DNA of 64,000 bases. It comes from Lytechinus pictus (Eukaryota). Position numbers and translations under genes: made by a program. The stretch lies in NCBI RefSeq assembly GCF_037042905.1, contig NC_087250.1, forward strand, positions 23,562,001-23,626,000, in the 5' to 3' direction. Positions 27,515 through 54,675 of this stretch are shown here, piece by piece. How positions within the stretch are numbered: the stretch's first letter is position 1; the number at the start of each line of letters is the position of its first letter. Below the pieces are notes generated by a model. The model was not told the DNA's origin. It made no database searches and was given only the letters and a program-made list of their open reading frames with translations.

Positions 27515-27594
27515 AGGTATTGGTTGACGTCTATAACGTTAGTCAAATAATTATTTTTTAGAGAGCCTGACGGAGTGGGTACTTCTCCAGGCTA
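27515..27594 (+). ncRNA. Putative Sm-class small RNA, copy 1 (5' end estimated)
   Basis: 11-bp 5' hairpin (27520-27546), U-tract ATTTTTTAG (27553-27561) and 3' hairpin AGCCTG...CAGGCT (27564-27593). Conserved upstream box at ~27455-27500. Confidence 0.5.
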
Positions 27595-27752
27595 GAATTC
27601 ATTGGGGTGTGGACCTTTGGGGTATACAAAGGGAAAATCATTTCACCCAATTATGATTCGTACAAAGGTGCTCAATATTTTCCGCCAGAACTCATTTGCC
27701 CTATTTAAGTAGAGCGCAGGTTCTTACATTTTTATTGGGCGTTACATTTTTA

Positions 27753-27934
27753 AACTGGGCGTTGTGGCATACGCCCATACGCCTGTAATCCAAGCTATGT
27801 GGGGAAGTTACAGATTGATGCAGAGGTTCGAGCCCTGGTCACGTCTTTCGGATGGTGACGTTAAAGGTCGGTCCCAGACGTAAATAATCAAATCTGATTG
27901 ATACACGTCTGACAAAACTCAAATACACACACAC
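27753..27934 (+). mobile_element. SINE with a 7SL/Alu-domain-like head and (CA)n tail
   Basis: Head CTGGGCGTTGTGGCATACGCC(CATACGCC)TGTAATCCAAGCTA, B-box GGTTCGAGCCC and a 10-bp TSD TACATTTTTA (27743-27752 and 27935-27944). Confidence 0.75.
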
Positions 27935-28423
27935 TACATTTTTATCGTTTCCCTTTGCATGTACTTTGCTGTTGGTACACCGTTAACGTGGGGATATCAT
28001 ACTTGACTGTTTAATTTTGTTGATGTTCTTCAGTCGAGGTTTTCTGTGATGTGTAATCATTCGGAAGATATTAATTTTACTTTATTCAGGGTATATGTTA
28101 TAAAAACAATCAAATTTAACAAAATGACAGTTATTCAACTCCTGTCTTACAAAGAGTTTTGATTTATCCAATCAATCTCAACGGTATGGAAATCCATCCA
28201 TACCATTTTTTTTCAGGAAATTTGAACAATCTCTTAAGTAAACAAAGAGAATCACACTGAATTCTCAAGAGAACAAGGAACATATGAATATACAACCTAT
28301 CTAGAGGATATCTCGAGAGCAAATTTATTTTCGATGTTGACGTTGCTGGCTTTCCATAGTTGTGGTTGATCGGATCATTGTATCTCTTTGTAAGACTAGG
28401 CGCAGAACCATGAGCCTAAACAG

Positions 28424-29012
28424 GGGGCCGTTTCATAAAGCTGTTCTCAAGATAAGAGCGACTTTAAGAACGACCGGTGAACCCTTCTTATGCGCTAAGC
28501 CATCGCATATGTATATACCATTTACCACAAGAAAAGATCACCAGTCGTTCTTAAGGCCACCGCACACCTTACGACTGGTCTGCGACCCGATTTCAGAATA
28601 AAATGTAATATAATTTGATGCTAATATTGAGGCTTGGAATATCTTACTGTGTAATGTTCGAAATCATCGTACGAATACCTATGATCAAATTTGTGACTAT
28701 GCTATCATCCTTCTTAGAATAAAAGCGAATTTAATATCTAGTCGTAATGACGTCATAGCAGTCTTACGATTGGCTACGATTTGAACCTAATTTGGACTTT
28801 ACTCCAAAATAAGGGCTTGCAATCTTTCAAAATTGTTATAATATTAGTATTTCAATTAATTTCAACGTCAAATAAAATGATATGTTCCATTCACATCTTC
28901 AGAAAATGAGCAAAATGCGATTTGTTCCTAAATCGGGTCGCAGACCAGTCGTAAGGTGTGCGGTCGCCTTAAAGTCGCTCTTAACTTACGAACAGCTTTA
29001 TGAAACACCCAC
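28424..29012. mobile_element. Harbinger-like MITE hosting a nested element
   Basis: TIR GGGGCCGTTTCATAAAGCTGTT...AACAGCTTTATGAAACACCCAC with CAG TSD. Confidence 0.8.
28555..28968. mobile_element. TTAA-flanked (Kolobok-like) MITE
   Basis: TIR GGCCACCGCACACCTTACGAC...GTCGTAAGGTGTGCGGTCGCC with TTAA on both sides. Other copies at 36737-37161 and, degenerate, at ~26565-26920. Confidence 0.88.
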
Positions 29013-29090
29013 CAGGTTCAAACGGAATTAGAAATATAACAAGAACATAAAACATTGATTGCAAAAGAAAGCTATCATAACTATTAAACT

Positions 29091-30345: not shown

Positions 30346-30542
30346 ATAGAATTAAATTTAAAACATATACACTCGTGTAAGGCAGAAAAGAGGGAGAGAG
30401 AAAAAGAAAATTGAGTTGAAAATTCTCCTTTATGGTGTAAATCATAGTGGTGATGCGCTTTCAAAGCAAATACCAAGTGAATAAAATATTTCGAATTTGA
30501 TATTATAACTTTTGCTGGTCCTTTCTAATGTAGAAAATTACC

Positions 30543-30950
30543 AATAATAATAATAATAATAATAGTAATAATGATGATGATGATGATGATGATGATAATA
30601 ATGATAGTAATAATGATTATGATAATAATAATGATAAAAATAATAATAATAGTAATAATGATGCTGATGATGATGATGATAATTATAATAATAATGATTA
30701 TAATAATAATAATAGCAATAACAATAATGATGATGATGATGATGATGATAATAATAATGATAATAATGATAATAATAATGATAAAAATAAAAATAATGAT
30801 GATGATGATGATAATGATAATAATGATTATAATAATGATATTAGCAATAATAATGATGATGATGATGATAATAATAATAATAATAATAATGATAATAATA
30901 ATAATAATGATAATAATAATAATGATAATAATATGGATAACATTAAAAAT
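30543..30950. repeat. (AAT/GAT)n microsatellite
   Basis: Simple repeat. Source of the poly-M/I ORF. Confidence 0.97.
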
Positions 30951-31289
30951 AATAACGGCATATTTACTCAGGTATCTACTTCAGTTCCGAAATCAATTCT
31001 TCCAACGGGTCCCGATATTAGTATTATCATTACCCCGGCTTGATGATGAAAGGATTTGCATATTTATAAGTTGATCAAAATGTCCGACAATTACACATCC
31101 CAGTCGATGTTTTAAGTCTGGCTATATTCTCTATAGATATATGACCAATTATATAGTAATGATAATGATGAAAATAATAATGATAATGATTGATAATAAT
31201 AATGATAATTATAATGATAATAATAATGATACATGTAGTAATAGTAATAATAACAAAAAAAATCAATGATGCGAATAATGACTGTAATA

Positions 31290-31675
31290 TTAACAACGGT
31301 CCCCGTACTTGGAACAATTTAACTAATAATTTAATGTCATGCACTACTATGTCATCTTTTAAGGTTGTATTGAAGATACAGCTTGTCTCTTTCTATTTCA
31401 CTTAATTCTTTATTATTACTCATTTAACTACCGATGTATCATGTGTGTTATGGCGTGGGTGTGCAAGGGGTTGTATGTGTGTGCATATGTGTATTATATT
31501 GTAACATGTACAACCAAGTATCTTTTTTCTATTTTGGGGGACTATGTCTAACAAGTTTTTTTTTACTTTCATAATAGTCTCCAACTTCATCATCATATTA
31601 TATCTTGAATGTTTCATGTTACTCTGTATATATATTTTATGATTGAAATGAATTAAATTGAATTGAAATTGAAAT
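31290..31675 (+). mobile_element. 3' remnant of a CR1/L2 LINE
   Basis: Encodes GPRTWNNL...SSFK (ORF2 C-terminus, compare GPRIWNSL at 46 kb) and ends in a (TTGAA)n tail. Confidence 0.7.
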
Positions 31676-32189
31676 CAGTAATAATGATGATAATAATAAT
31701 ATTAATATTAGTAATAGAAATAAAACTACATAATCATACAAATTGTTTTATAAATATCAGACAGTCATACTTCGGTGCTTATACATAGAGGAAAATATTT
31801 TCATTCATTGAAAGGTAGCAAAATACAAGTTATTGAACATGTATCAATATTATTATTTTCAGTGATTTGTTTTATTATATTTTCTGTTCTCAATTATTAT
31901 ATGACTGTAACCGGTATTGCAATTTACTAATCGATTATTGAATTAGTAAAATTTTTATACTGGCTACGTGCGGAGTGCATTATGATGAGATGTCTAAATA
32001 TGATTTTTGTTGATAAAATAATATGATCATACATGTTTTGCATTTTATAAAAAGAAAATTATACTGATTGATACATGAACATGAAAATGAATACGATTTA
32101 GTTCTTAAAATCAATCTTTTTACTTCGAGATTAAGAATATTAACTTTACGTATTAAATTATATATTAATCAAAATGGTTTCATTAAGCT

Positions 32190-32274
32190 CCTATTTGCAT
32201 AAAGCATATTGTACAATAGCTGTATAATGTTCTTTTTGAAGAGCTTAGAGTACTACGCCGTGTATCTCGAGCTT
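32190..32274 (+). ncRNA. Putative Sm-class small RNA, copy 2
   Basis: 5' hairpin ATATTGTACA/TGTATAATGT (32206-32230), CTTTTTGA and an imperfect 3' hairpin at 32242-32273. Upstream TAATCGATTA at 31928 and proximal box at ~32125-32165. Confidence 0.5.
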
Positions 32275-32278
32275 TTAA

Positions 32279-34138: not shown

Positions 34139-34421
34139 GGCACCTGAGGTTATTCTGCCACGACACACCTATCGATTACATTTAAACCGCCGTAAAATAT
34201 AATCGATATTCATATTTGATAATATTGACTTTTAAAAAAATTTAGAGTCGCGTATGCATTATCATCAACTATCTTTCTCTCATTTTCTTTTCTTGAAAAA
34301 ATAAACACATTAATGTACAAAAATTAGTATATATAAATATAAAATGTTAATCAATATGACTTTTCTTTCAAAATGTATGTCTACAGAAGATTAGAAAAGT
34401 AACTTCATTTGTGATTGTTAA

Positions 34422-35007
34422 AGGAGAATGAAACTCTTGGAGCAAGTTAGCTTTTGTGAAAGCAGAAAAATCAAAGAATAAGATCAACAAAAGTTTGAGT
34501 AAAATAGGACTAGCAATAGAAGAGTTATGAGCATTTGAATGTCGAGATCACTAATGCTATGGAGATCCTCCAATTGGCAATGCGACCAAGATCTATGATG
34601 TCACAGATGAACAACTCTCCCCTTTTGGACACTGAAAATATACCCCAAAACATCTCTTTTTGCTCATTCTAATCATATGACAAACGATTCATCAATGATA
34701 TAATGTTGTGAAACCTCTGTACTTGTCCTCTCATATAAAGAGAACACCTCACCTTGTGATAGACTCTATAAAAGTGAGAATATAAGTGAAATAAGTACTA
34801 AAGTAATGAGGGAGTTGTACGTGTGTGACATCACAGATCTTGGTCGCAATGCCAATGGGAAGATCTACATGGCATTAGTGATCTCAATATTCAAATGCTC
34901 ATAACTTTCTTATTATTCATTCAATCTTCCTCAAACTTTCAACAATATGTTTCTTTGATTTTTCTCTTTGATATGGATTCAGCTGGTTTCAAGGGCTTCA
35001 ATCTCCT
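34422..35007. mobile_element. TTAA-flanked (Kolobok-like) MITE inserted inside Sm-RNA unit 3
   Basis: TTAA|AGGAGAATGAA...TTCAATCTCCT|TTAA with inverted arms (TGTCACAGAT/AGATCTTGGTCGCA motifs). Confidence 0.85.
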
Positions 35008-35024
35008 TTAAGAAATATCTTATA

Positions 35025-35120
35025 ACTTTTTCCTCGACATGTTGTGCTGATGAGTGTCTGAAAAAACAAAATAATTAATTTGTGCAGAGCTTGAAATACA
35101 GCGCCTTGTATATCGAGCTT
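35025..35120 (+). ncRNA. Putative Sm-class small RNA, copy 3 (separated from its upstream box by a MITE)
   Basis: AATTTGTG U-tract followed by hairpin AGCTTGAAATACA-GCGCCT-TGTATATCGAGCT (35088-35119). Confidence 0.45.
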
Positions 35121-35560
35121 GTGATTACTATCATATTGGGTTTATGAGCTGTGGGGGAGCCGAATGACCTGGTTGATACACGTCTTACACAGCGGCGAAA
35201 CAGGGGTCAGTGGCCAGGGGGGGCAAGAGCCAAAAATTTCCCGGTCATATCATGGTATAACCAGGCGTAATGGTGTAATAAGGCGACGATTTTGAGAGGG
35301 TCAGAAATTGCGTATTGGGCAGAATCCATCTTTAAAAAAAAGGAGCGAAGCAAGCGAGCAAAATTTTTTGACATTTTAATACAAAAATATAATTTTGTGA
35401 TAGATTTTGATCCAGAGAATAATATATTTCAATCTTCTCTCTTTCCATTCCTTTTTTGTGGTCAGGATTTTGTGAACAGGATTCTTTGCGGCAGTAGCTG
35501 GAAGAGTACAAAAAAAAACGAGGGGCGCAGTATGGCGCATGTGCTAAAAAGCTGCTTTAA

Positions 35561-36732: not shown

Positions 36733-36736
36733 TTAA

Positions 36737-37161
36737 GGCCACCGCACACCTTACGACTGTTCGCGATCCGATTTTGGGACAAATCGCACTTTGCTCATTT
36801 TCTGAAAATGTGAATGGAACATATCATTTCATTTGAGGTTTAAATTAATAGAAAGAATACTAATATAACCATTTTGAAAGATTGCAAACCTTTATTTTGG
36901 AGTAAAGGCCAAATTAGTTTCAAATCGTAGCCAATCGTACGACTGCTATGACGTCATTACGACTAGATATTAAATTAGCTTTTATTCTAAGAAGAAAGCT
37001 AAGAAGGATGATAGCATAGTCACAGATTTGAACATAGGTATTCGTACGATGATTTCGAACATTACACAGTAAGATATTCCAAGTCTCAATATTAGCATCA
37101 AATTCTACAACATTTTATTCTGAAATCGGGTCGCAGGCCAGTCGTAAGGTGTGCGGTCGCC
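36737..37161. mobile_element. TTAA-flanked MITE (same family as 28555-28968)
   Basis: Same TIRs. Shares the TTAA at 36733-36736 with the preceding element. Confidence 0.88.
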
Positions 37162-38478: not shown

Positions 38479-41252
38479 TTATATCCTACATAGATTGTAT
38501 CCTGTATAGTGATTGGTTCAAATGGCATCAAGTGACCAAATATATTTGAAACATGATGTTGCGTGACGTCAGACCTCGATTTTGTTTTCGTTATATCCTA
38601 CATAAATTAAATCCTGTATGCTGATTGGTTTAAATGGCATCATGTGACCAAAATTATTCTCACTATTTTGCGATGATGTCGAAAATGAAACGCCCACCGA
38701 AAAAAATGTGCTATTCCGTGACGTCAATGATGGAATAGTCGACTATTCCATCATTGACGTCACAGATCATTGACACAGATCATGCAATCTCTCGGGCGCA
38801 CCGGTCAGCGAGATGACTCTACCGGGCAAGTCCCGTGAAGAGACGGCGCAGGCACAAATCGGCATTCCGCTGAGCGCGTGGTTTCGGGAAAGGTAGATCA
38901 GTCTGCGCAGCGCGTTATCTATTTTTAAGTTCAGATTAAGAAAAGATGAACTAGATAGACTATTGTTCTACCTGATTGAATGTAGGATATACAACAAATA
39001 TACCAGGCCTTTATTTCGAAAGTATAGAGAGAATTATTTATCCTCGGTTGTACTGGCCAAATTACTATTTATCCCTCGGGGCTTCGCCCCTTCACCCCTC
39101 GGGAAAAATAGTAATGCCAGTCCAACCTCGGAAAATAATTCCTGTTATATCCCTTACTTAAGATTGTTGTATTGAGAGTGTACACAAGGAAAAAAGAATA
39201 GTTTCACTACGAAAAACGTTTGCCGTGAAATAGTTCATTTTCCTTGCTGACGTCACGCATAGTCAATTTTTTTCCCTAAGGAAAAAGTGAACTATACGTT
39301 TTTTGACCCCCCTCCCAAAGACCTTATAATATGCCCCCCCCCCCCACCCTACCTCGCGATTCGCGAGCTGTGCGGCGCGATGCGAGCAGAGCGCTGCTCA
39401 GCAAAACGGTACTCTCCACTGCATGCCACGGGAAACTTTCGGCGAGCTGCACTAACCAAGGGTGTGCTCGCTGAACAGACGATCCATACGGCAAAACTTA
39501 TATTTTCTCAACTTCTCAACGATTGTTCTATATCAACTTATTAAAAAAAATCGTTTCGCTGTAAAATTAATGATATGAGTGGAAGGGATATAAAACAAAT
39601 ATACAATGACCCATTCTCGGAACAGGATATTCGCCCTCAGGAACATCACGATGGCCCTCGGGAGAATAGTAGGCCTACTATGTGATGTTCCTTCGATGCG
39701 AATAGTTTTAGCCAGATCCTCGATCGAGTGTCAATGTATATTTGTATACTATACTTACATAAAGCCTGGTGCATTTGTATACTATACCAATATTCTTAAT
39801 TCATTATTTCAGAAAACTGGATATTTAGCTAAACTCTCGGGCGCACCGGCCAGCGAGCTCTGTCTCCCGGGCAAGTCCCGAGATGCGTCGGCGCAGGCAC
39901 TAATCTGCGTTCCGCGGAGCGCGGTGGCTCGATGAAGAGTAGGTAATTCAACGCAAGTAACCGGACTTTCCAAGCTCAGCGCATAGATTTTGGTTATGAA
40001 TTATCAAAAGTATAAAGGATATAAAACAAATATATCAGGCATTTCATTCGAAAGCATAGTGGAAATTATTAACCCTCGATTGGACTGGCAAAACTACTAT
40101 ACTTCCCTCGGGGCTTCGTCCCTCGAGGTAAAATAGTAATTGCCAGACCAACCTCGGATAAATAATTCCACTATACTTTCTCAAAGCCTGATATATTTGT
40201 TTATTATTCTTGTATATTACTGTATCGAACATTGTTGTATTATTAAACCTGCCGGTTAGTCTAATAGATTCGCTGTCCGGTCGGCGGCCCTGGTTCTTTT
40301 TTTCAGCATGGTCTGTAAAGAAAGACGTGGTGAACAACTATTCATATATCTGTTGTTGTTGTTGTTGTTGTTGATGGCTCAAGATATACGGCGCTGTATC
40401 CCAAGCTCTTCAAAAATTTAAGGTAGCAATTTTTGAGTACACACTGTACATGTAAGAGGAAACTTGTAAAATCATGAAATTAATTTCTAATCAAATAAGT
40501 ACAGTTACGATTGTTAATCTAGAAGTAACAAAGATTGATTCTCAGAATCAATTATATATTTGTCAGGTTACGGTATCAATGAATTTAGTTCTTAATCTTT
40601 TTTTAATATAAGAAATGCATGATCATATTTAAAAAATGTATTTATATATTTAGACAGTGGTCGAATACTGTGCACTCCACAAGTAACCATAAATAAACTT
40701 AGTAATCGATTACTAACTTACAATAAACAAATATATCAGGCTTTGAGAAAGTATAGTGGAATTATTTATCCGAGGTTGGTCTGGCAATTACTATTTTTCC
40801 AGAGGGGCGAAGCCCCGAGGGAAGTATAGTAGTTTTGCCAGTCCAACCGAGGATTAATAATTCCCACTTTGCTTTCGAATGAAACGCCTGATATATTTTT
40901 TTTATATCCTACTTTTAATAATTTATAACCAAAATCTATTCGCTGATCTTGCTTAGTCCGTTTACTTGAGTTGAATTACCTACTTTTCTCCGAGCCACCG
41001 TGCTCAGCGGAACGCAGATTAGTTCCTGCGCCGACGCATGGCTGGACTTGCCCGGGAGAGAGAGCGCGCTGGCCGGTGTGCCCTAGAGTTTAGCTAGATA
41101 TCGAGTTTTGTGAAATAATGACGTCAGAATATTGGTATATCCAAAAATATATCGAGGTCTGACGTCACGCAACACCATAGTTGAAATATATTCGGTCACA
41201 TGATGCTACTTGAACCAATCACTATACAGGATTTACTCTGTGTAGGATATAA
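38479..41252. mobile_element. Large inverted-repeat composite of a TTATATCCTAC-ended repeat family
   Basis: 38479-38580 is the reverse complement of 41150-41252, and 39780-40205 is the reverse complement of 40723-41140. Related fragments fill 38590-39770. The spacer 40206-40722 is unrelated to the arms. Confidence 0.75.
40376..40455 (-). ncRNA. Putative Sm-class small RNA, copy 4 (inverted)
   Basis: Minus strand reads AAATTTTTGAAGA-GCTTGGGATACA-GCGCCG-TATATCTTGAGC, with a canonical Sm site AAUUUUUGA. The upstream 40500-40715 region is homologous to unit 2. Confidence 0.55.
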
Positions 41253-42794
41253 TACTGATTACATTGATGTAATAATTCATATAATATACAAATATATCAG
41301 GCTTTGAGAAAGTATAGTGGGAATTATTCATCCACGGTTGGACCGGCAATTATTATTTTCCCCGAGGGAAAAATAGTTATATTGCCATCCAACCGCTTGC
41401 TCAGCGTAATATCCAGTCTTCGGTATCGCACACAACTTATAGCGCAGGTCAGGTTTCTGTTGCATAAAAATTATTATATAACTCAAACGAAGATTCTTGC
41501 CATTTGATTGGTTGAATGGTGTTCAATATTTGGTCCATTCTTTACTGCGTGCATTTTGTAATTTTCCATTGCACGGTGACCGTGCATTTTTATTTTTCCA
41601 TTGCACGGTACGCTAGCGCTCCCTCAGTATAATCATGTGTATGTCAACTTACCTTCTCATGTATGTGTGTGTGTGTGTATGTTTGCGCGCAGATCAAACT
41701 GACTGTGCGCACTCGACTCAGATCCATGAAGCAATGCGCGTCACAAAACAATTAAAGCAATGAAAGGGCTGATGATCGAGCTGTCGATACATGGAAGAAT
41801 CCACCGTAGGCCGACTAGCAATTATCAGAGAAAAAATGTTGCTGGAAATGGGCCAACCTAATCTTTATATATTTTATTTCCTCTTTTACATTTTTAAAAA
41901 CTTTGTAACTTATATGAGTTATATAAAACAAATAATGAATGTAAATATTTGTGCAATGGAAAGAATATTTACATTCGATGAAAGATTAAAAGTTCCATTC
42001 AACTTGGCTACGCCTCCCATTGCACGCATACACATGCATTATTTGTATACCATTCTGGTAAATTTGCTATTCAATGGTTATTACCATGTTAAAGGGGTAC
42101 TCCCGGCTGAAGTAAATATGATTTTAACAGATAAAGACAAATCAGACAAGCAAAACACTGTTAATTTAATCAAATCATACAAATGTTAATTAATATGAAT
42201 GTTTATTTTTCAAAATTTTCACTTTTCTTGTATCATTAGAAATGTAAATGAAAAAAAAATAATGATTTATATATTTTTTTTATTATCTTTTTTTATTTTT
42301 ACGCTGTCCCTCTTTCATTGTTACTTCCTTTTTTTACATTTTCTTTTTCTTAGCCCCGCCCCTCAAAAAACACACGTACCCACTTGTTACCAACAGTGTA
42401 TACAATTTTAAGGAGTAGAATATGAAATTCCTTGGTAAATGTCACATATGCTATGCATTGGCAGGGTTCCGAACCCCTGACTTATTTGTCCGTCGCCTGA
42501 GGGCTGCCACTACACACCTATCGATTATATTTAACCTCCGTGTAGCGTGATCGATAATATGGTAATAGCAAAATTAACAAATTTCGGAGTTGTATATACA
42601 TTATCATCAACTATCTTTCTATCGTTGCTTTCTTTTTAAAACAAAAGTATATATATTGATATATTAAAATTAATATGTCCATAAAAAATAACAATCAATG
42701 TGACTTTTCTTTTAAGTTTTTTCTAATGAAGGTTAGACAGGTAACTTTATTTGTAACTATAAAAAATATAATGTTTATATTTGTTACACACTAC

Positions 42795-42884
42795 GTCACT
42801 ACGAGTCAATGTAATCTCAAAGAGAAAATATCATATATCAGCTTTTTGGAAAGCCTGGGATACAGCGCCGTGTATCTCGGGCCT
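42795..42884 (+). ncRNA. Putative Sm-class small RNA, copy 5
   Basis: CTTTTTGG followed by hairpin GCCTGGGATACA-GCGCCG-TGTATCTCGGGC (42853-42882). The upstream 42495-42770 region is homologous to unit 3. Confidence 0.55.
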
Positions 42885-43329
42885 ATTACAAACACGTGAA
42901 CATTGATGGGGCATACGAGTAGGGGAGCCGAAGAGTGGCCGAGAGGGTGCCGAAGGAGGCCGAGGGGAGCCGAAGGAGGGTGAAAGGGGGTGCGGAGGTA
43001 TTATCTCCCTGTGCCTCTCCCGTCTCCTCTACATCACCCTTTCCATCATCTTGTTTACATAATGCGAAAGCGCCCCTTTGATAAGCTCGGTCACTTCGCT
43101 CCCTCACTTTCGATTTTTTTTCCCCAAAATGTCTACTGCCCACCAGCCCATCCCCATGCAAAAAACTTCTGCTTTATCGAAAGTTATCCTTTGTTTCCCT
43201 GTGCCCCCACTTTGAACTTTGCTCCACCGCCCCTGCAACACCCGCCATGAGTCAAAGAAGAAACCACTGGGCGTAACACATAGCTGCTTATAATTTAAAG
43301 GTAAAGTCCACCCCAGCTTTTTTTTCGCG

Positions 43330-44040: not shown

Positions 44041-44479
44041 GTTTTTTAAAGGAGAGCAAAAAGCATTTGAATCCACACAAAAGAGAGAAAATCAAATAAA
44101 CATATTTCAGGTTTGAGAAAAATCGAATGCATACTAGTAGTAAGAAAGCTTTATTTTGTATATGGATTGAAAATTTTGACAAAAAAACTTCTTCATTAAT
44201 AAAAAAAATATCGATATTACTATTCTATAATCGATTATTGAATTGGCCGGTGAAGACGAAAATAGTTACTAGTATATAAAAAGTATGAACGCTCATTCTC
44301 CTTCTATTCTCAGTAAATTTCATACATTACAATGTCGATTTTATACAAAACACCCAAAATGTATATATTTAGAAGATCATGGATATGATATGGTGTTGGC
44401 AGATATTCCATTCAGGATAGGAAGCAAATTTAACACTCACTACTTTTTTGGCTTTAAAAAATAATTACATATAATAATG

Positions 44480-44566
44480 ATTCATCATCACAATTGGATC
44501 GTGTGTATTGTAAACAACAATACAACTTTTGAAGAGCATGATATATAATTCGTGTGTATCGTGCTT
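44480..44566 (+). ncRNA. Putative Sm-class small RNA, copy 6
   Basis: 8-bp hairpin TGTATTGT/ACAATACA, ACTTTTGA and a 13-bp hairpin AGCATGATATATA-ATTCG-TGTGTATCGTGCT (44535-44565). Upstream ATCGAT pair (44210, 44228) and ACTCACTAC box (44435). Confidence 0.55.
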
Positions 44567-44594
44567 AAGTGTATTCGGGGTTTTCGGGTTTTCA

Positions 44595-45683: not shown

Positions 45684-45688
45684 TTAAA

Positions 45689-48600
45689 TTCAATTCAATT
45701 CAATTCATTTTATTCAATCATTTAAAAAAATCAAAGAATATACAAACCAAAATATATACAAATCATACATGAATGTAACAGTATAGTTTAAATGATTAGG
45801 GTGTCCCTAAAAGCAAAAGCTTGATGAGTGGGACACCCAATACATATATATATATATATATATAAGCGTACATAAAAGTGAAAAGGTAACAATAATAAAC
45901 ACAAACAATACATAAGAAAATAAGACGGTAAACCTACAGGGGAGAGGAGGGGGGGGGTCAGGAAAAGGGTGTGGAAATGAATTGTGTGATTAATTGGCAT
46001 ACATAATTACAAGTGAACTTTTGAGTTTTGTTTTAAATGCAGTAACATTTGTGCTAGAAATTACAGTGGAAGGGAGGGAATTCCATATTCGAGGACCAGT
46101 GGATTTAAATGAATAAAGGGTTGATTGATTGAATGCTACAGGATAATGGAATTTAGAGTTTGAACGGGTATTGTATTGATGGTAGTCTTTATTATATTTA
46201 AATAGATTAATCATATTAAGGGGTGCTAAGTTGTGATTTACGTAGTACATTATAATTGCAATTTGAATTTTATGAATATAAAAAACTGTCAAGGTGTTTA
46301 ATCTAAAAAATAAAGGGCGCGACGGAGCTAGGTAGTGGGAGTTAGAACAAATACGTAAAGCCTTTTTTTGGAGTATGTGTATGGGGTTTAGTTTTGTAGT
46401 GCCACAACTTGCCCAAGTGATATTACCATAATAGATATAAGGAAGCAATAAAGAATTGTAGAGCATAAGCAAATGTTTTTCTGTAAGATTATTACGTAAT
46501 TTAGCTAATATACCTATATTTTTTGACATCTTATTACTAACAAAAAAAGCGGTGTTCATTGTAAGACAATTTGTCATCAAGTACAAATCCTAAGAATTTT
46601 ACGGAATTTACTAATTTTAAAGTTACATTTCTAATTTTAACATTGAAGTCGAAAGATACATTGTGGGATAAATGAGGTTTTCGAAAATACATAACACTTG
46701 TTTTGTCATAATTGACAACGAGTTTGTTTGCATCGAACCAATCACAAATCTTACATAATTCATCATTTGTTTTTTCCAGTAAATATATAAAATTGCTATG
46801 GGTAGAAACAATAGTAGTGTCATCAGCAAATAAAACATAATTAAAGAATGAAGATGCTGAACATAAATCATTTATATAAATAAGGAAGAGAAGCGGGCCC
46901 AGTATGGAGCCTTGGGGGACTCCATACTGGGCGATAGAATATTGAGAATCATAATTGTTAAATGAAGTGTAGTTTTGTCGATCAATTAAGTAGTTCTAGA
47001 ACCATTCCCACACTGCTCCCCTAATACCGTAATGAGATAATTTATATAAGAGAATGTTATGGTCTATGAGGTCGAAGGCTTTTGATAGGTCTAGGAATAT
47101 TCCAAATGAGTGGTAATTATTATTCATATTAGTTAAGAGGGTATTATTTAAGTCAATTAATGCATGCTCACATGAATGTCCAACCCTAAATCCGTATTGA
47201 CAGTTGTTTAATATTCTGTTATTATCTAAGTGGGAAATTAATCTTTTGTAAACAATTTTTTCCAGGATCTTAGAAAAGCATGATAATAATGTAATAGGTC
47301 GGTAATTAGAAAATGAATGTTTATCGCCTTTTTTGAAAACTGGGATGATTTTTCCGATTTTTAAGCTATTAGGTACTTTGCCAGAACATAAAGATAAATT
47401 AAATATATGTACTAATGGTTTAAGTATAGAAAAAATTACTTTTTTGATAACAAAGGAACTTATATCGTCAAAACCGGTACTATAGGTCAACTTTAATTCC
47501 TTAACGATTTTAATTATTTCTAATTCATTGGTCGGATAAAAATACATAGAGGATTGACATGGATTACTTAGGTATTGGCTAAAATGATTTTTGAAATTAT
47601 GAGCAGATTGTTTTAGGGTATTTGAGGCAATGTTGGAAAAGAAGTTGTTAAATTCATTTACTATATCTTGATTATTACAGACTTTAACATTATTTTTCAT
47701 AAAATATAAAGGAAAATTTTGTTTATTTTTCTTACACATTAGGTCGTTTATAATTTGCCAAACCTTTCTAAGATTATTTTTATTCTTGGATAATAAATCA
47801 CAATAATATTTTTTACGAGCTGATCTTAATAGCTGATTTAAAATGTTACGATATTTCTTATATTTCATTTCAATTGATTTAGTACGTTTTTGGCAAAAAA
47901 GTTTGTGAAGTCGATTTTTTTTATTGATACATTTTAACAAGCCATGACTAATCCAAGGCTTTTTAGCCGAAATCTTAGTCTTTTTTTCAAGTTTACAATT
48001 CACATTAAATGCTGATTTGAATACTTCAAGGAAATTATTATATGCATCATCTGCATCACCTAATGATAATATATGATTCCAGTCAAAAGAGAGTAAAATT
48101 TTGTTGAGGCTATCAATATTTTCTTTGTTAATGCTTCTTTTCTTAAAATTCAAATCGACGTCTGTTTTAGAATAAGACCTTATATTACGGGTAATTGAAA
48201 AAATTGGCAAATGGTCAGTTGTATCGTCATAAAATATTCCAGAAGATATATTATTTTCGCATACATTCGTAAAAATATTGTCGATTAAAGTTGTCGAGCA
48301 ATGTGTTATTCTTGTAGGTCGGTTAATCAAGGGTCTGAGGGAATTATTATACATTATATTAAAAAAATCATTGACATTTGCAACTGATGAACTATTCAAC
48401 AAATTTATATTCCAGTCACCCATAATATATATATTCTTGTTTTCATTTATAATTTTACTAAGGCATGTATTTACATCGTTATTAAAATCAGTTACATTTG
48501 AACCAGGATCACGATAAATAATTCCAATGATTATGTTTTTTTTATCACATATATTAATTTCAAGAAAGAGAGATTCACATAAGTTTTGCGCTAGATTTAT

Positions 48601-50200
48601 ATCCACTCTTTCTATCACATTCAATGAATCATGAATCAACATGGCTACTCCACCACCTCTACTTTTTGTTCTGTCACAGTGAAAAGAATTATAATTTTCC
48701 ATATGGAATAGTTCTTTTGGAGTTAATGGGTGCATCCAGGTTTCACTGAATTCATATATTAAAAAATTAGGACTAATTTGTTTTGTAATAAAATCGTGTA
48801 TATTTTCAAAATTTTTATGCAAGCTTCTTGCGTTAAAATGGAGTACACTAAATGCATCATTATCAAAAGTCATTTCAGAATTGAATTCAGCGGGTAACCA
48901 GTATCTACTTGGATTATCAAGTACAGGGCAGTTAACATCGGGATCAATATTTGATAAGTTATCTTCTTTATTTATGCACATGTTAATTTCACAATCATTT
49001 AACTCATATTGTATATCATGGTTGACAAGGTTGCCAAATTCTATATCGGAAAGGTTGTTAAAAGGGAAAGGGGATTCACAAAATAACATAATTTACTCAA
49101 AGATTAAGGGTAAAAAATACAATGGAAAAACAAGTAAAAAAACATAAAAATAAAAAAATCTTGTATTAAAATTGTTACATAAACAAGAGTGCAATTGGGG
49201 TACACAATAGTTTATTCACACTTTCAAGTTTCATTACATGTAGTCCAACAGTCTTTAAAGTTTCATGAGTTCATCCTTTGTTCGTATGTGTCTTTTCATT
49301 GTTCTGTTTCCCGTTGTAGCGAGCAGTGCAATGATCCGGCCATCAGAGGCCCAAGCTTCTTTGACTTTTTCATGTTACTTTGTAGTGTAGAGCAGCTCTT
49401 GATTGGCAGCGGTCAATGACTCGTCAATTCCGATTCCAGAACCTTTCAGTTTTCTGCGGGATCGGAGAACTTCGTTCCGTTTTCGGTAAGACGTGAATTT
49501 TACCACTATTGATCGTGCCTTTTTCTTTCTTCCTTCTACTTTTTCATTGTTCCTCACAGCGACACGGTGTGATCTATCTATATCATGCTTCGATAATTCC
49601 ACGCCCAGCTTATCTTTGGCAATGGTGCACACAAGGTCATCTGTATCTTCTCTATCATGCTCTGCTACCCCGAAGAACTTCAAACAATTGCGTCTCGAGT
49701 ATTGTTCTGCTTCGTTGACGGCAATTTGAAGATTGTTAATTGCGTTGCTCTGATTGGTTGATAGTTCTTTCAGTGCTTTGATTTCGTTCTCCTTAACTCG
49801 AAGGTCTATCTCTAATTCCATTCTATTTCCATCATAGCGGTCAAGTCGCTCAGTAATATCATTGTTCGACTTTTCGATTAGCTCAAGTCGATGCAAGAAC
49901 TTGGTCATTTCTTTGTTCATTGCCCTTTCAACAGCCCTTTCTACTGATTTCTCAATGGAACTGAGGAATTCATCACCTTTGAGATAATCATTGGCTGCAG
50001 CAACAGCCGCCGCTTGGGCCTTCGCCATGATGAAAATATGAAGACCGAATATGAGAATATTATAAGAAATGTTATAATGAATATAGAATGTTGATTGTGC
50101 GACCTTCAGGCGTTTCACAAATTGTAGTTTAGTTTATACACGATACATTACATTGCGTTAAGTTTTCTGCAGATAAAAAGGCCCTCAAAATTAATTGGTA
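45689..50200 (-). mobile_element. Near full-length CR1/L2-group LINE with intact ORF1 and disrupted ORF2
   Basis: ORF1 at 49375-50118 (coiled coil, EQYSRRNCL, IDRSHRV). ORF2 at 49089-46996 (APE: HFNARSL, SETW, GDWNINLL, TDHLPIF; RT: YRPITLL, QYGFR, DLSKAFD) continues after a stop and frameshifts to 45990 (GVPQGS, FADD). 3' (TTGAA)n tail at ~45689-45712. The 5' end is approximate. Confidence 0.93.
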
Positions 50201-51320: not shown

Positions 51321-51789
51321 GGTGAGCGCACGTAATGAGTCAAATAAATATGAAGACGAATTTAAGCTATTAACAAATATTTTCATAACCCCCCCTTCCC
51401 ATCACCGCGGCCTCTTCACTCAGATATTCCATGTCCTAATAACATAGTCTAAGCCCTAAACCTTGGTATACCACGACCCTCCCTAAACATCCCCTATTTC
51501 CGCTGAATAATAATCGATCATACAATTCGTTAATCGATTATTAAATTTGGTGCGGAACACAAGAGGCGGTTCTCAGGTGCAAAATAAGTATGATTACTCG
51601 TAATTTTATCTTCAATTTCTTTTATAAATTAAAGGTTGATTAAACATTCGAGACAACACTTATATATTAAAAAGCAATGATATTGATTCAGAGTTGGAAA
51701 ACTTTTTATTTTATTCACAAGTGGAAACCAAAGATAAGACTCACCACATTTGTTGTGATAAAAATAATAATTTATCTACTAGTTTCCAT

Positions 51790-51881
51790 GCGGGTGATAA
51801 AAAAATAATTTTTGCTTACAAATTACGTTAATCGTAACAACTTTTGAGAAGCTTAAAATGCAGTCCGTGCATTTTGAGCTA
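51790..51881 (+). ncRNA. Putative Sm-class small RNA, copy 7
   Basis: ACTTTTGA followed by a 13-bp hairpin AGCTTAAAATGCA-GTCCG-TGCATTTTGAGCT (51850-51880). Upstream ATCGAT pair (51512, 51531) and ACTCACCACATTTG box (51739). Confidence 0.55.
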
Positions 51882-52485
51882 TTTTGTGATAATATATATT
51901 GCTTGAATCTCTTGTCCCCCCCCCCCCCCTCCCGAACGAACTAATTGCTATTTGTCTGATAAGCCAGTTCGGAGTTCAATTCTGCGCATGATCACAAGGT
52001 CATTTGTATTACAGTGACAATGGTAGTTTAATGTTTATATCAATGAGATAAGCACCAACTTTGATGTCTTGATTACTCATAATTCTTTTGTATTGTGCTT
52101 TCCAGTCATGTCATTTAGATTGACAAAAAACAACAATGAGTCCTCAAACGACTGGTATTTCAAAGTTGGCCGAGAACATTGTTATAGCATGGACAAGTAG
52201 GTCAACATGGTCAATGGTTATAGCAACATGACGATGCATTCAAAGTAGAAATTCAACAAATACCTTCATAGAGTGTTAATTGGTGTGCTATTCTAGTCGC
52301 CTGGGGCCCGTAACACAAAGCTTAGTGAATGATCGTAGAACATTTTTTCTACGATTGATTGCATTGACTACAATGTACAATCAATGGTAAAAATCAAGCG
52401 TACGATTTATAGTCAACCTTTGTGTTCCGGGACCCTGGTCAATGAAATTTCTGCATCCTCCTATGTAAGGCCAAGGAGTTTTTAA

Positions 52486-53075
52486 AGGGGAATCCAACCC
52501 AAATACAAACTTGCTTTTAGAGGAAAAGGAAGAATCAGACAAGTTGATAGGTGAAAGTTTTAAAAATATTGGACAAACAATAAGAAAGAATTTTTAAAAG
52601 TTGTGATTATTGGTAATCACTATACCCATGGAGATTTCAAATTGGCCACAAATATGATGTCATAGTGATGTAAAGCAAGGACTACTCTTCCATGTACTCC
52701 AATACATAAAATGGCTAAAATTACATTTTAAAAAAGAGTTTTATTTCAAATTATATTTTTCTTTCATGGGGACACAACACAATGTACTACCTAGGCTATA
52801 TTTAGATTACAGTCCCGTGGGAATGGGTACTTAAAAGAAAACTACAAATCACTGATAATAAATTACATGGCATATGGGAAAGTTGTCCGTGACACTTGTC
52901 ATAATTTACTTACCCAGTTGCCAATTTGAAATCTACATAGTCTTAGGAATCTCAATTTTAAAACAGCCATAACCTTCTTATTGCTTGTCCGATTTCTTTC
53001 AAACTTTCACCATTCTGTTTTATTTAATTTTCTCCTGTCAAACACAACATATTATGACCAAGGCTGGATTCCCCT
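52486..53075. mobile_element. TTAA-flanked (Kolobok-like) MITE
   Basis: TTAA|AGGGGAATCCAACC...GGCTGGATTCCCCT|TTAA. Confidence 0.85.
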
Positions 53076-53954
53076 TTAAGACATGGAGAACCATCAAACT
53101 CATTCCATTTATAGCCACTTTGATACCGCAATGATTAACTATGTAAGAAATGTGTTTCATTGCATATTTCTTGCAGATTGTAGACAAAATTGTCCTGCCT
53201 AACAACAGACTTACAGGCGAATTACAAAAGGAAACATGCTTTTGTAATGATATTTACTTTACGCTGCTTCTGGTTGGATAATATGAGCAGACACATTGCT
53301 CTCCTTTACAGGGGACAGCAAAAATAAATGTTGCAATATTTCTTAAGATATGATTTAAAATTTATCGACTGGCTGCATTTGGCCCCGGTTTTGACACATA
53401 GCATCAAAAATTGATACATTTTAACAAACTAATATAATATTTTTATAGTGTCGTAACATCCACTATTTTCGCTGAATAATAATAGTAATAATAATAATAG
53501 ATAATAATATTTGTTTATTTATGTTACTAAGTATTGTTATCTTTGATTTAGATTTTGACTTTATTTTCATGTATGATTTGATGATTTATGTTGTTCTTTA
53601 TGTTTTCATCAGGTCATTGATGAAAAACAGTTTTATGCTGATCTTTTGTACCTGAATAAATATGTTCTAATAAATAAATAAATAAGTAATCGATCATCCA
53701 ATTTGTTAATCGATTATTACATTTGGTGCGGATGACAAGAGGCGTTCTCAGCAAAATAAGTATGGGCGCTCATTATAATTTTATCCTCAAATTCCTTTAT
53801 GAATGAAATGTCAATTAATCGTTTATAAGAAACTTATATGTAAAAAGCATTGACATTGATTCAGTGTTGAAATTTATTTATATCATTTATAATTGGAAAC
53901 CAAAGATATGACTCACCACATTTGTTGTGATAAAAAGAATTTATATTCCAAAAG

Positions 53955-54038
53955 TTTGAACCTTCAATCGCTAACACATTTTGTGTACGGAATTTAGTTT
54001 TTGAGAAGCTTGAATGCAGTCCGTGTATTTTGAGCTTT
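53955..54038 (+). ncRNA. Putative Sm-class small RNA, copy 8
   Basis: GTTTTTGA followed by hairpin AGCTTGAATGCA-GTCCG-TGTATTTTGAGCT (54007-54036). The upstream 53687-53940 region is closely homologous to unit 7. Confidence 0.55.
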
Positions 54039-54574
54039 CATTGTGATATTTTATGTAAGGAAGCCTGTCTCTCCCTCCCCCCTTCCCCCAGACGATATGT
54101 TCGTGTTTGGTCCATAACTGGTCAAATATTAATCCCTCCGCTACCCACATGGTATAATTGCTACTTCGTCAACTCACAATTTCGTCTAATAACCATTTGG
54201 CCAAATAGCCGTCTCGTCCGTATACCGTTTGGTCTAATAAGCCAGTTCTCAGCAAAATAATTATGATGCCTCACTATCGTTTTATTCTCAATGTCCTTAG
54301 AATATCAAATGTCAATTTCATATTTAAAGGACATTGAGCAACAAATATTTAAAAAAATATATATATTAAACAACAAAATATTATTTTGTTTAATATTAAT
54401 ATTTTGTGTCAGATATTTGTTTAATATTAAAAAATATTAAACAAAAAATATAATATATCCAAAAAACATCGTTATTGATTCAGTGTTGAAAAAGATTTCA
54501 TTTCATTCACAATTGGAACAAAAAATAAGACCCACTGCTTTTCTTGTGATGAAAAAATCATTATATATTTTTGT

Positions 54575-54675
54575 ACCGTTTCTCATCAGTGTGTACGCTT
54601 TGCACGTGCGATTGACAATGATTGAATAAAACATTTTTTGAATAGCTCGGAATACAGTTCGTGTATTCTGAGCTT
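54575..54675 (+). ncRNA. Putative Sm-class small RNA, copy 9
   Basis: 5' hairpin TCAGTGTGTACG...CGTGCGATTGA, canonical ATTTTTTGA and a 13-bp hairpin AGCTCGGAATACA-GTTCG-TGTATTCTGAGCT (54644-54674). Upstream box at 54530. Confidence 0.55.

What the first reader, a model, noticed from the sequence alone, without database searches (positions are those of the whole stretch)
27515..54645. Hypervariable 5' segment between conserved promoter and conserved Sm/hairpin: possible guide repertoire
SEEN: even in closely related units (7 vs 8, 3 vs 5, 2 vs 4) the upstream DNA and 3' hairpin align well, but the ~40-60 nt before the U-tract do not align by eye. Most still fold into a local hairpin: copy 1 TTGGTTGACGT/ACGTTAGTCAA, copy 2 ATATTGTACA/TGTATAATGT, copy 6 TGTATTGT/ACAATACA, copy 8 ACACA/TGTGT. 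KNOWN: U7 and U1 recognise targets through the sequence 5' of the Sm site. INFERENCE: a constant scaffold with a diversified 5' region could be a set of guides for different RNA targets, or a structure-only constraint as in SmY.
Basis: partly seen in the sequence, partly recalled or inferred. Interest (0 to 1): 0.7.

Follow-up and report, generated by a model that had tools for sequence, protein, structure and literature searches.

The report
Sea urchin cluster of Sm-type RNA genes
A single stretch of a sea urchin chromosome holds about sixteen small genes that share a promoter, a U-rich protein-binding site and a hairpin but each carry a different front end, which looks like an undescribed family of small nuclear RNAs whose expression and purpose are still unknown.

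Summary
The units are real. The window (a sea urchin genome) holds 9 copies, not 8. Seven more lie 8-18 kb to its left, giving 16 in about 72 kb, and a genome-wide pattern found none elsewhere. Each has a U-run followed by G-purine and a 12-bp hairpin with strong covariation and a G.U excess that fixes the RNA strand. Conserved boxes lie upstream at snRNA-like distances. No Rfam family matches.

The 5' arms really are all different. "Hypervariable" is only partly shown. In the in-window pairs the arm is no more diverged than the downstream flank. Only the youngest pair, outside the window, shows a clear excess: 42/66 against 230/252 columns. The 5' hairpins are not above controls.

Three small target searches found nothing.

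Best reading: an orphan, lineage-specific family of Sm-class snRNA-type genes with U7-like layout. A guide function for the arms is plausible but unproven.

The parts
27550..27596 (+). Unit c27 core. The U-run lacks the following G, and the hairpin has the same build but a different sequence. It is the most divergent member and possibly decayed.
   Evidence: Model R2 scores 17.4 bits, E 0.31. Sequence. Sm check.
32228..32276 (+). Unit c32 core: U-run, G-purine and the 12-bp hairpin.
   Evidence: R2 scores 48.4 bits. Alignment A4.
35074..35122 (+). Unit c35 core (AUUUGUG-type site plus hairpin). Its promoter boxes are cut off by an insertion of about 500 nt, so it is probably a dead copy.
   Evidence: R2 scores 56.2 bits. 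Alignment to c42 shows the insertion after the PSE-like box. The inverted-repeat element lies at 34464-34965.
40373..40421 (-). Unit c40 core, the only minus-strand unit in the window.
   Evidence: R2 scores 58.5 bits.
42838..42886 (+). Unit c42 core.
   Evidence: R2 scores 56.6 bits.
44521..44568 (+). Unit c44 core. Its hairpin carries several compensated changes.
   Evidence: R2 scores 50.9 bits. Pair counts.
51836..51883 (+). Unit c51 core.
   Evidence: R2 scores 57.7 bits.
53993..54039 (+). Unit c53 core.
   Evidence: R2 scores 52.7 bits.
54630..54677 (+). Unit c54 core. It extends past the end coordinate of the finding.
   Evidence: R2 scores 57.6 bits.
27500..27550 (+). Variable 5' arm of c27 (approximate limits). 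It contains an 11-bp hairpin.
32170..32232 (+). Variable 5' arm of c32 (approximate limits).
40417..40480 (-). Variable 5' arm of c40 (approximate limits).
42775..42842 (+). Variable 5' arm of c42 (approximate limits).
44465..44525 (+). Variable 5' arm of c44 (approximate limits). It contains a 7-8-bp hairpin.
51770..51840 (+). Variable 5' arm of c51 (approximate limits). It includes a second copy of the box next to the TATA-like box.
53940..53997 (+). Variable 5' arm of c53 (approximate limits).
54565..54634 (+). Variable 5' arm of c54 (approximate limits).
31928..31944 (+). Distal ATCGAT-type box of c32, about 300 nt before the core.
40703..40712 (-). Distal ATCGAT-type box of c40, about 283-289 nt before the core.
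42520..42555 (+). Two ATCGAT boxes of c42, 318 and 288 nt before the core.
44210..44235 (+). Two ATCGAT boxes of c44, 311 and 291 nt before the core.
51513..51547 (+). Two ATCGAT boxes of c51, 323 and 303 nt before the core.
53689..53723 (+). Two ATCGAT boxes of c53, 304 and 284 nt before the core.
34171..34215 (+). ATCGAT boxes that belong to c35, now about 870-900 nt from its core because of the insertion.
51739..51775 (+). PSE-like ACTCAC box and A/T-rich TATA-like box of c51. Equivalent boxes start at 27471, 32142, 40506 (minus strand), 42743, 44435, 53911 and 54530.
   Evidence: One search gives the positions, 75-100 nt before the core. ACTCAC occurs in 5 units against 0.21 expected, and TATA-like words are enriched.

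Best explanation
This is a lineage-specific, single-locus family of about 16 small genes built like RNA polymerase II snRNA genes. Nine of them lie in the window.

Each unit has, in order:
- a distal ATCGAT-type box, often doubled, about 270-325 nt before the core;
- a proximal ACTCAC/AACT box with an A/T-rich TATA-like box 75-100 nt before the core;
- a non-conserved 5' arm, estimated at 20-45 nt if transcription starts as far from the proximal box as it does in the tandem U2 gene;
- a U-run followed by G-purine, which is Sm-site-like;
- directly after it, a 12-bp hairpin with a conserved apical part.

Shown here: the constant parts are under purifying selection at the RNA level, on the strand that runs from promoter to hairpin.

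Inferred: the product is a 65-95-nt RNA that receives an Sm ring on the U-run and hairpin and is kept in the nucleus, as other Sm-class RNAs are. The free 5' arm would be the part that gives each member its specificity by base pairing with another RNA, as in U7. Each paralogue would then address a different partner.

I put about 0.65 on the core claim (real Sm-class snRNA-type genes) and about 0.4 on the full statement, which includes arms that act by base pairing.
For: Hairpin.
- On 15 units, 93.2% of cells are paired and 7 of 12 pairs change on both sides, in 25 cells. None of 500 shuffles reaches the covariation score, and slid registers give 22-54% paired.
- The first 8 units gave the same picture.
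- There are 22 G.U cells against 5 A.C cells, so the fold is selected on the unit's own strand.

U-run.
- 14 of 16 units have a U-run followed by G-purine or GUG.
- The G is invariant in 8 of 8 in A2 and near-invariant in A4.

Promoter.
- An ATCGAT-type box lies 267-325 nt upstream in 12 of 16 units, and a thirteenth has been displaced by an insertion.
- ACTCAC is enriched at -130..-61 (5 units, 0.21 expected, Bonferroni 0.012), as are TATA-like words.
- The unit at L038:285 shares a 12-nt word with the tandem U2 promoter, and the spacing from that word to the TATA box and to a GT|A start-like site is nearly the same.

Family limits.
- A degenerate core pattern hits 7 places in the 811-Mb genome. 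All are in this cluster, and the control gives 0.
- Model R2 finds nothing more in 264 kb.

Arms.
- All 16 differ.
- In the youngest pair the arm is 42/66 identical against 230/252 in the flanks (p = 2e-7).
- The arms carry no shared fold that would bury them.

Established knowledge, recalled rather than tested here: known Sm-class RNAs (U1, U2, U4, U5, U7, U11, U12, SL RNA, the herpesvirus HSURs) act by base pairing through parts outside the Sm site. An Sm site with an adjacent 3' stem-loop is the minimal signal for SMN-dependent Sm-core assembly.
Against:
- The strict Sm heptad, with an A before the U-run, is present in only 6 of 16 units, and 2 of 16 lack the G.
- The 3' box found 10-20 nt after U2 and U5 genes of this genome (CAAAGAAAGA) has a partial look-alike (CAAAGAA, 11 nt after the hairpin) after only 1 of 16 units; none carries the full box.
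- Sharing of words with U2 and U5 promoters is not above control: 10 pairs with words of 9 nt or more against 9.5 expected. For the longest word P = 0.06.
- No target was found, though the tests were small. Local 300 kb: top scores equal those of shuffles. One arm of 31 nt is unique in the genome at up to 3 mismatches. Mean z against U2 was +0.65 and against U5 -0.84.
- In the two in-window pairs that can be compared, the arm is not more diverged than the downstream flank.
- In the young pair the excess divergence also covers the untranscribed promoter-proximal part: -200..-121 is 67/84 and -120..-61 is 40/65. That fits a local mutational cause better than selection on the RNA.
- Several members look decayed: c35 (insertion), c27 and L037:7989 (no G after the U-run), and L038:898 (4-nt deletion in the ACTCA box).
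Confidence: 0.4

Rival explanations
1. These are the same genes and the same Sm-type particle, but the 5' arm has no sequence-specific job. Only the promoter, U-run and hairpin matter, for example as a platform for a protein that reads the conserved top of the hairpin. The arm simply drifts. It drifts faster than the flanks because the region around an active start site is unusually mutable and prone to insertions and deletions.
For: - Only the core and the upstream boxes are conserved. Over all pairs the arm (0.47) and the downstream flank (0.45) both sit at shuffled level.
- In the pairs c32/c40 and c51/c53 the arm is no more diverged than the downstream flank.
- In the young pair, identity falls gradually from -300 and the fall includes untranscribed DNA. 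Insertions and deletions dominate: a 12-nt tandem duplication and a 4-nt deletion. In c51 the box next to the TATA-like box is duplicated.
- The top of the hairpin (ACAG..CCGUGU) is the best conserved stretch.
- Thornlow et al. 2018 (PMC6130373; abstract and section 8 read) report mutation rates 7-10 times the genome average at active tRNA loci and highly variable flanks, and say the pattern also suits other Pol III genes and histone genes.
Against: - The same paper says most Pol II genes do not show this pattern.
- The immediate 3' flank of the young pair, which should also be transcribed, is 64/72 identical.
- All well-studied Sm-class RNAs use their non-Sm parts for base pairing (recalled).
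Confidence: 0.25
2. This is a decaying or silent repeat family. An ancestral small RNA gene was multiplied locally, and most or all copies are no longer expressed. The conserved blocks reflect recent common descent and gene conversion, not present function.
For: - At least four of 16 copies carry lesions.
- The cluster sits among LINE and inverted-repeat elements.
- No snRNA-type 3' box is present.
- The family exists at one locus only.
Against: - Most pairs are saturated in their flanks (0.45-0.49, the shuffled level) while the core stays at 0.62 on average.
- The hairpin shows 25 doubly changed cells that keep pairing.
- The G.U to A.C asymmetry is 22 to 5.
All three require long-lasting selection on an RNA, not recent descent.
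Confidence: 0.2
3. These are Pol III genes of the U6 type (proximal box plus TATA box). Transcription ends at the T-run, so the RNA is the variable segment alone and the hairpin lies outside it.
For: A proximal box plus a TATA-like box lie upstream. A T-run of 4 or more is present in 12 of 16 units (read).
Against: - Four units have only T3 (ATTTGTG or ATTTATT).
- The G after the run is conserved, which a terminator does not need.
- The hairpin after the run shows RNA-level, strand-specific covariation.
- Tandem U2 genes of this genome, which are Pol II genes, also carry a TATA box at -31.
Confidence: 0.07
4. These are spliced-leader RNA genes with many different leaders. The arm would hold a short exon and a splice donor.
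For: The layout arm - Sm site - hairpin resembles short SL RNAs. GUA occurs in most arms, and TGTAC occurs 7 times in 5 units against 0.97 expected (Bonferroni 0.07).
Against: - No leader is shared among the copies.
- The motif enrichment is not significant after correction.
- Tu et al. 2012 (PMC3460201; passages read) found no significant evidence of SL trans-splicing in S. purpuratus embryos. Their method looked for a shared hotspot, so it could miss many rare leaders.
Confidence: 0.03

Closest known systems
U7 snRNA (histone pre-mRNA 3' processing)
   Same: The order of parts and probably the size match: a short 5' arm, a U-rich Sm-type site, one 3' hairpin, about 60-90 nt in all. U7 recognises its target through the arm. 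From memory, U7 genes in a sea urchin were described as a small gene cluster (De Lorenzi et al. 1986; not seen here).
   Different: - The Rfam U7 model gives no match, even at E up to 10.
- The U-run sites look like spliceosomal ones. The U7 site is stated to differ from those (abstract of PMC12360213, seen in the listing).
- There are 16 different arms instead of one conserved arm.
- No pyrimidine arm complementary to a purine-rich histone downstream element was noticed. No histone locus was fetched to test this.
SmY RNAs of nematodes
   Same: Both are a clustered multi-copy family of short Sm-class RNAs whose paralogues differ in sequence, with stem-loops next to an Sm site.
   Different: - The 5' stem-loop is not a consistent feature here.
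- There is no Rfam match.
- SmY belongs to organisms with SL trans-splicing, which was not found in sea urchin embryos (PMC3460201).
snRNA:LU of Drosophila (orphan Sm-class snRNA; Lu et al. 2014, PMC4053861, passages read)
   Same: Both are lineage-restricted Sm-class snRNAs outside the canonical set. LU was recognised by its snRNA-type promoter, Sm site and covarying stems, and is thought to have arisen by duplication of a canonical snRNA followed by rapid divergence.
   Different: [quoted passage not shown]
- Here there are 16 paralogues, no invariant single-stranded region, and no expression data.
Herpesvirus saimiri HSURs (recalled, not looked up)
   Same: They are small Sm-class RNAs made of a variable 5' part that pairs with host RNAs plus the minimal Sm site and 3' stem-loop. 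Several paralogues lie in one cluster.
   Different: HSURs are viral and have conserved 5' motifs. Nothing here suggests a viral origin.
Canonical U2 and U5 genes of the same genome
   Same: Both have a TATA-like box about 30 nt before the start and a box about 55-60 nt before it. One unit shares a 12-nt word with the tandem U2 promoter at nearly the same spacing.
   Different: - The full 3' box CAAAGAAAGA of U2 and U5 is absent after all 16 units; one carries a partial look-alike.
- Overall word sharing of the promoters is at control level.
- The ATCGAT distal box was not seen in the U2 and U5 upstream sequences printed.

Membership tests
Sm-class snRNA genes (general) | U-rich Sm-type site: a U-run followed by G and a purine | tested here: met
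   14 of 16 units have a U-run followed by G-purine or GUG. 2 of 16 lack the G.
Sm-class snRNA genes (general) | Adenosine directly before the U-run (the strict heptad) | tested here: inconclusive
   Present in 6 of 16 units. In 8 of 16 a C, G or T precedes the run.
Sm-class snRNA genes (general) | Stem-loop directly 3' of the Sm site, conserved as RNA structure | tested here: met
   12 bp, 93.2% of cells paired, 7 of 12 pairs doubly changed, 0 of 500 shuffles reach the score. 22 G.U cells against 5 A.C cells.
Sm-class snRNA genes (general) | Pol II snRNA promoter: a proximal element about 55 nt before the start and a distal enhancer about 200-300 nt before it | tested here: inconclusive
   Family-specific boxes lie at fitting distances. 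Similarity to the U2 and U5 promoters of this genome is not significant. The start site is unknown.
Sm-class snRNA genes (general) | 3' box shortly after the coding region | tested here: not met
   The U2/U5 box CAAAGAAAGA has a partial look-alike after 1 of 16 units only. No other shared downstream word passes correction.
Sm-class snRNA genes (general) | Expressed, TMG-capped and bound by Sm proteins | not testable with these tools
U7 snRNA | Match to the family model (Rfam RF00066) | tested here: not met
   No U7 match at E up to 10 in window 26000-56000 or in L037/L038.
U7 snRNA | U7-specific Sm site that differs from the spliceosomal one | tested here: not met
   The sites read AUUUUUGA, AUUUGUGA, CUUUUGA and the like, which is the spliceosomal type. 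That the U7 site differs is stated in the abstract of PMC12360213.
U7 snRNA | 5' arm complementary to the histone downstream element | not tested
   No histone locus was fetched.
SmY RNA | Two conserved stem-loops flanking the Sm site, and a match to the Rfam model | tested here: not met
   The 5' fold is not above controls. No Rfam match of any family lies on the units.
Spliced-leader RNA | A leader exon shared by the gene copies, followed by a splice donor | tested here: not met
   Arms have no shared sequence. GUA/TGTAC enrichment is not significant after correction.
Spliced-leader RNA | Trans-spliced mRNAs exist in the organism | not testable with these tools
   Literature only: none were found in S. 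purpuratus embryos (PMC3460201).
Pol III type-3 small RNA gene | The RNA ends at a run of four or more T | tested here: inconclusive
   12 of 16 units have T4 or more and 4 have T3. The conserved G and the covarying hairpin after the run argue that the RNA reads through.

The most novel reading that the evidence does not exclude
A germline-encoded, fast-diversifying repertoire of U7-like Sm particles. In this reading one chromosomal cluster keeps producing new antisense arms on a constant Sm-site and hairpin chassis. Each arm would steer processing or silencing of a different RNA, for example paralogue-specific 3'-end processing or control of transposon or viral transcripts, and the arms would turn over under diversifying selection. 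That would be a new kind of guide-RNA system built on the Sm fold in a deuterostome.
Probability: 0.1. Interest if true: 0.9.

Novelty: new variant of a known kind. Interest (0 to 1): 0.6.

Why it matters
Orphan Sm-class RNAs outside the spliceosomal set, U7 and SL RNA are rare. The examples are SmY in nematodes, LU in Drosophila and the HSURs of a herpesvirus.

A 16-member, single-locus family in a sea urchin would be a new case in a classic model for snRNA and histone RNA processing. Strong RNA-level selection acts on only the Sm site and hairpin, and every front end is different. If expressed, the family offers a natural experiment on what the minimal signal for Sm-core assembly can carry. 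It also gives a direct test of whether antisense arms on an Sm chassis can diversify like a guide repertoire.

If it is not expressed, it is an instructive example of the birth and death of small RNA genes.

Tried and rejected
- Rfam at gathering level on the whole window found nothing. At E up to 10 on 26000-56000 and on L037/L038, nothing fell on any unit.
- A whole-genome search with my covariance model was not accepted for this genome, so I used patterns instead. The pattern recovers only 7 of 15 known cores, so divergent members elsewhere could be missed.
- A whole-genome DNA search with a 121-nt unit found only itself. That tool sees near-identical DNA only.
- The Rfam U7 search of the whole genome gave no hit, but only 65 of about 190,000 candidates were scored and the controls were silent, so it is uninformative.
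- Sequencing runs: no RNA holder was listed. 20 runs hold 5-7% of the words of 51500-54750 and are of unknown kind.
- Earlier findings of the scan returned nothing.
- Targets: arms against 264 kb of local DNA plus 13 other loci gave top scores equal to those of shuffles. A 31-nt arm (L037) is unique in the genome at up to 3 mismatches. Arm duplexes with U2 gave mean z +0.65 and with U5 -0.84. Two arms had z below -3 against U5, among 32 tests with 40 shuffles each, which I do not count as a finding. An earlier version of that script timed out.
- The distal box as a family marker: the 17-nt pattern has 12 genome hits, 4 in the cluster and 8 elsewhere, against a control of 2. None of the 8 has a core downstream; all score below 8 bits. 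One of them, and L037:9045, belong to an unrelated repeat.
- GT|A as the start site: its distance from the proximal box varies from 40 to 69 nt by my count on the sequences, so I rejected it as a general rule.
- Arm composition: GC is 0.36 against 0.39 in the downstream flank (not significant), and CpG observed/expected is 1.28 against 1.10 and 0.84. There is no clear signal.
- The first fixed-window identity table used free end gaps and was unreliable. It was replaced.
- Literature searches for a prior description found none: 'sea urchin, snRNA, Sm site, novel', 'SmY, Sm-class, deuterostome' and 'sea urchin, spliced leader, trans-splicing, echinoderm'. Old subscription-journal papers on sea urchin U7, U1 and U2 genes are not in the library, and I cite them from memory only.

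Full report
WHAT THE WINDOW IS. The window is C6:23562001-23626000 of an 811-Mb assembly. An intronless rhodopsin-type receptor ORF at 13073-14182 (minus strand) is 86% identical to a Lytechinus variegatus protein and 82% to one of L. pictus. The genome is therefore a sea urchin close to, but not identical with, those species. The neighbourhood holds LINE-type reverse transcriptase ORFs, inverted-repeat elements and microsatellites.

THE OBSERVATION. I find nine units in the window rather than eight. The U-run starts at 27551, 32233, 35079, 40416 (minus strand), 42843, 44526, 51841, 53998 and 54635.
- A covariance model built from eight of them found seven more in the 20 kb just left of the window, at L037:2589, 6475 and 7989 and L038:285 (minus strand), 898, 1730 and 2971.
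- A second model built from 15 units found nothing further in 264 kb, apart from the divergent copy at 27550 (17.4 bits).
- The family therefore has 16 members in about 72 kb, 14 of them on one strand.
- Three genome-wide patterns found the core only here. One search gave 2 of 2 hits in the cluster with control 0. One search gave 4 cluster hits at 0-1 mismatch, plus 5 two-mismatch hits against 8 in the control. One search gave 7 of 7 hits in the cluster with control 0.
- The last pattern recovers only 7 of 15 known cores, so very divergent relatives elsewhere cannot be excluded.

THE CONSTANT PARTS. The core is a U-run, then G-purine, then a few purines, then a 12-bp hairpin with a 5-9-nt loop.
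- On 15 units, 93.2% of cells pair and seven of twelve pairs change on both sides (25 cells). None of 500 shuffles reaches the covariation score, and slid registers give 22-54% pairing.
- The hairpin has 22 G.U cells but only 5 A.C cells. It is therefore selected as RNA on the strand that runs from the upstream boxes to the hairpin.
- The U-run is followed by G-purine or GUG in 14 of 16 units. The alternation between the U5-G and UUUGUG forms is what spliceosomal Sm sites show (recalled). The adenosine before the run is present in only 6 of 16.
- Upstream, an ATCGAT-type box, often two boxes 20-30 nt apart, lies 267-325 nt before the core in 12 of 16 units. One box is shared by a divergently oriented pair.
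- An ACTCAC or AACT box lies 75-100 nt before the core, followed by an A/T-rich TATA-like box.
- For comparison I fetched the U2 and U5 genes of the same genome. They too have a TATA box near -31 and a box near -60. The unit at L038:285 shares a 12-nt word with the tandem U2 promoter, at nearly the same spacing to the TATA box and to a GT|A site.
- A formal word-sharing test is not significant, however: 10 pairs against 9.5 expected, with P = 0.06 for the longest word.
- The U2/U5 3' box CAAAGAAAGA has only a partial look-alike, CAAAGAA, after 1 of the 16 units and is otherwise missing.
- No Rfam family, U7, SmY and SL RNAs included, matches any unit even at E up to 10.

THE VARIABLE PART. Between the TATA-like box and the U-run lie about 55-85 nt that do not align.
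- Over all 120 pairs of the 16 units, identity of the last 60 nt is 0.47, against 0.46 +/- 0.05 for shuffled sequences. The core reaches 0.62 against 0.44. No unit has a partner above 0.61. So there are 16 different arms, and there is no sign that arms were exchanged among members.
- Whether this is more than neutral decay depends on the pair.
  - c32/c40: upstream 175/258, arm 39/75, core 34/44, downstream 83/195. The arm is not more diverged than the downstream flank (p = 0.17).
  - c51/c53: upstream 211/262, arm 38/83, core 37/44, downstream 98/167 (arm against downstream p = 0.06).
  - c35/c42 cannot be used. In c35 an element of about 500 nt sits between the proximal box and the core, so c35 is probably dead.
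  - The young tandem pair L038:898/1730 is the informative one. Its flanks are 230/252 identical and its arm 42/66 (p = 2e-7).
- In that young pair, identity already falls in untranscribed DNA (67/84 at -200..-121 and 40/65 at -120..-61), largely through insertions and deletions. The 3' flank stays at 64/72.
- Short words such as TGTAC and ACGT recur, but they fail correction for multiple tests.
- Arm composition does not differ from the downstream flank.

WHAT IT MOST LIKELY IS. Five features fit a gene family for short Sm-class RNAs laid out like U7, that is arm, Sm site, hairpin:
- a strand-specific covarying hairpin directly after an Sm-like U-run;
- upstream boxes at snRNA-like distances;
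- a TATA box, as in this genome's U2 genes;
- gene-sized spacing of the units;
- confinement to one locus.
If transcription starts as far from the proximal box as in the tandem U2 gene, the arms are about 20-45 nt and the RNAs about 65-95 nt. This is inferred and has not been measured. I put about 0.65 on this core reading.

A Pol III reading, in which the RNA ends at the T-run, is unlikely. Four units have only T3, the following G is conserved, and the hairpin behind the run is selected as RNA. A spliced-leader reading is unlikely because no leader is shared, and a transcriptome study found no significant evidence of SL trans-splicing in sea urchin embryos (PMC3460201, passages read).

HOW IT MIGHT WORK. 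Every well-studied Sm-class RNA acts by base pairing through parts outside the Sm site (recalled). The default inference is therefore that the arms give specificity and that different arms mean different partners.

The main rival (0.25) is that only the Sm site and hairpin matter and the arm drifts, helped by raised mutability around an active start site. This is known for tRNA loci (Thornlow et al. 2018, PMC6130373, abstract and section 8 read), although that paper notes that most Pol II genes do not show it. The gradual fall in identity upstream of the start in the young pair favours this rival. The quiet 3' flank speaks against it.

A third possibility (0.2) is a largely silent, decaying family. 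At least four copies carry lesions. The compensated changes and saturated flanks, however, show long selection on an RNA in at least part of the family's history.

TESTS THAT GAVE NOTHING. Arms against 300 kb of local and other fetched DNA scored no better than shuffles. One GC-rich 31-nt arm has no second copy, sense or antisense, in the genome at up to 3 mismatches. Duplex energies with U2 and U5 are unremarkable. These tests are far too small to exclude targets. Orthologous clusters could not be fetched, because no other sea urchin genome is held.

COMPARISON AND NOVELTY.
- The closest in layout is U7. The units fail its model and its special Sm site, and they have many arms instead of one.
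- The closest in genomics is SmY, a clustered multi-copy family. The second stem-loop and the trans-splicing context are missing here.
- The closest in status is Drosophila LU, an orphan, lineage-restricted Sm-class snRNA recognised by the same kinds of features (PMC4053861, passages read).
- My three literature searches found no description of such a family in echinoderms. The older sea urchin snRNA literature is not in the searchable library.
I rate it a new variant of a known kind. It is interesting if expressed, and its central functional claim is still open.

Noticed in passing
window 13073-14182 (-) and 21831-22988 (-): Two intronless ORFs of 369 and 385 aa with a rhodopsin-family 7TM domain. 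The first is 86% identical to an uncharacterised Lytechinus variegatus protein. They lie in the 44-kb gap between the two halves of the small-RNA cluster.
   Followed up: partly
window 46996-49092 (-) and 18062-18871 (+): LINE-type ORFs. The first (698 aa) has an RVT_1 domain above threshold and a weak sub-threshold endonuclease hit. The second (269 aa) is a reverse-transcriptase fragment.
   Followed up: no
window 34464-34965: An inverted-repeat element (arms 34464-34624 and 34805-34965, 80% complementary). It sits between the promoter boxes and the core of unit c35 and probably inactivates it.
   Followed up: partly
window 28551-28941 and 36763-37165: A long inverted repeat, 90-95% complementary in two adjoining blocks. 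It brackets about 8 kb that contain units c32 and c35. It could mark a large mobile element or an inverted segmental duplication.
   Followed up: no
window 10392-11780: A satellite of about 1.4 kb with a 42-nt basic period and higher-order periods of 76-202 nt.
   Followed up: no
window 2949-3386: A 15-nt tandem repeat of 28 copies, lying inside open frames of 227-249 aa on both strands.
   Followed up: no
window 30543-30955 and 62849-63098: Long AAT/GAT and ATG trinucleotide microsatellites.
   Followed up: no
L016-L020 (C8:33.237-33.285 Mb) and L021-L028 (C13:21.634-21.679 Mb): A U2 tandem array of at least 45 copies with a period of about 1,037 nt, and a U5 array with units on both strands. 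Both gene types are followed 10-20 nt downstream by CAAAGAAAGA, apparently this genome's snRNA 3' box.
   Followed up: partly
L038:285-332 (-) and L038:898-949 (+): Two units point away from each other and share a single ATCGAT box, which lies 284 and 282 nt from their cores. This is a bidirectional arrangement.
   Followed up: no
window 51750-51815: Unit c51 carries a second, slightly diverged copy of the GTGATAAAAA box that lies next to its TATA-like box, about 40 nt further on. That copy also creates a second U-run-G motif inside its arm.
   Followed up: no
L037:9020-9080 and L055 (C12:20747900-20748440): The same sequence of about 40 nt around an ATCGAT motif occurs in both places without a small-RNA core nearby. 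It is probably part of a dispersed repeat and is not a relic promoter.
   Followed up: partly
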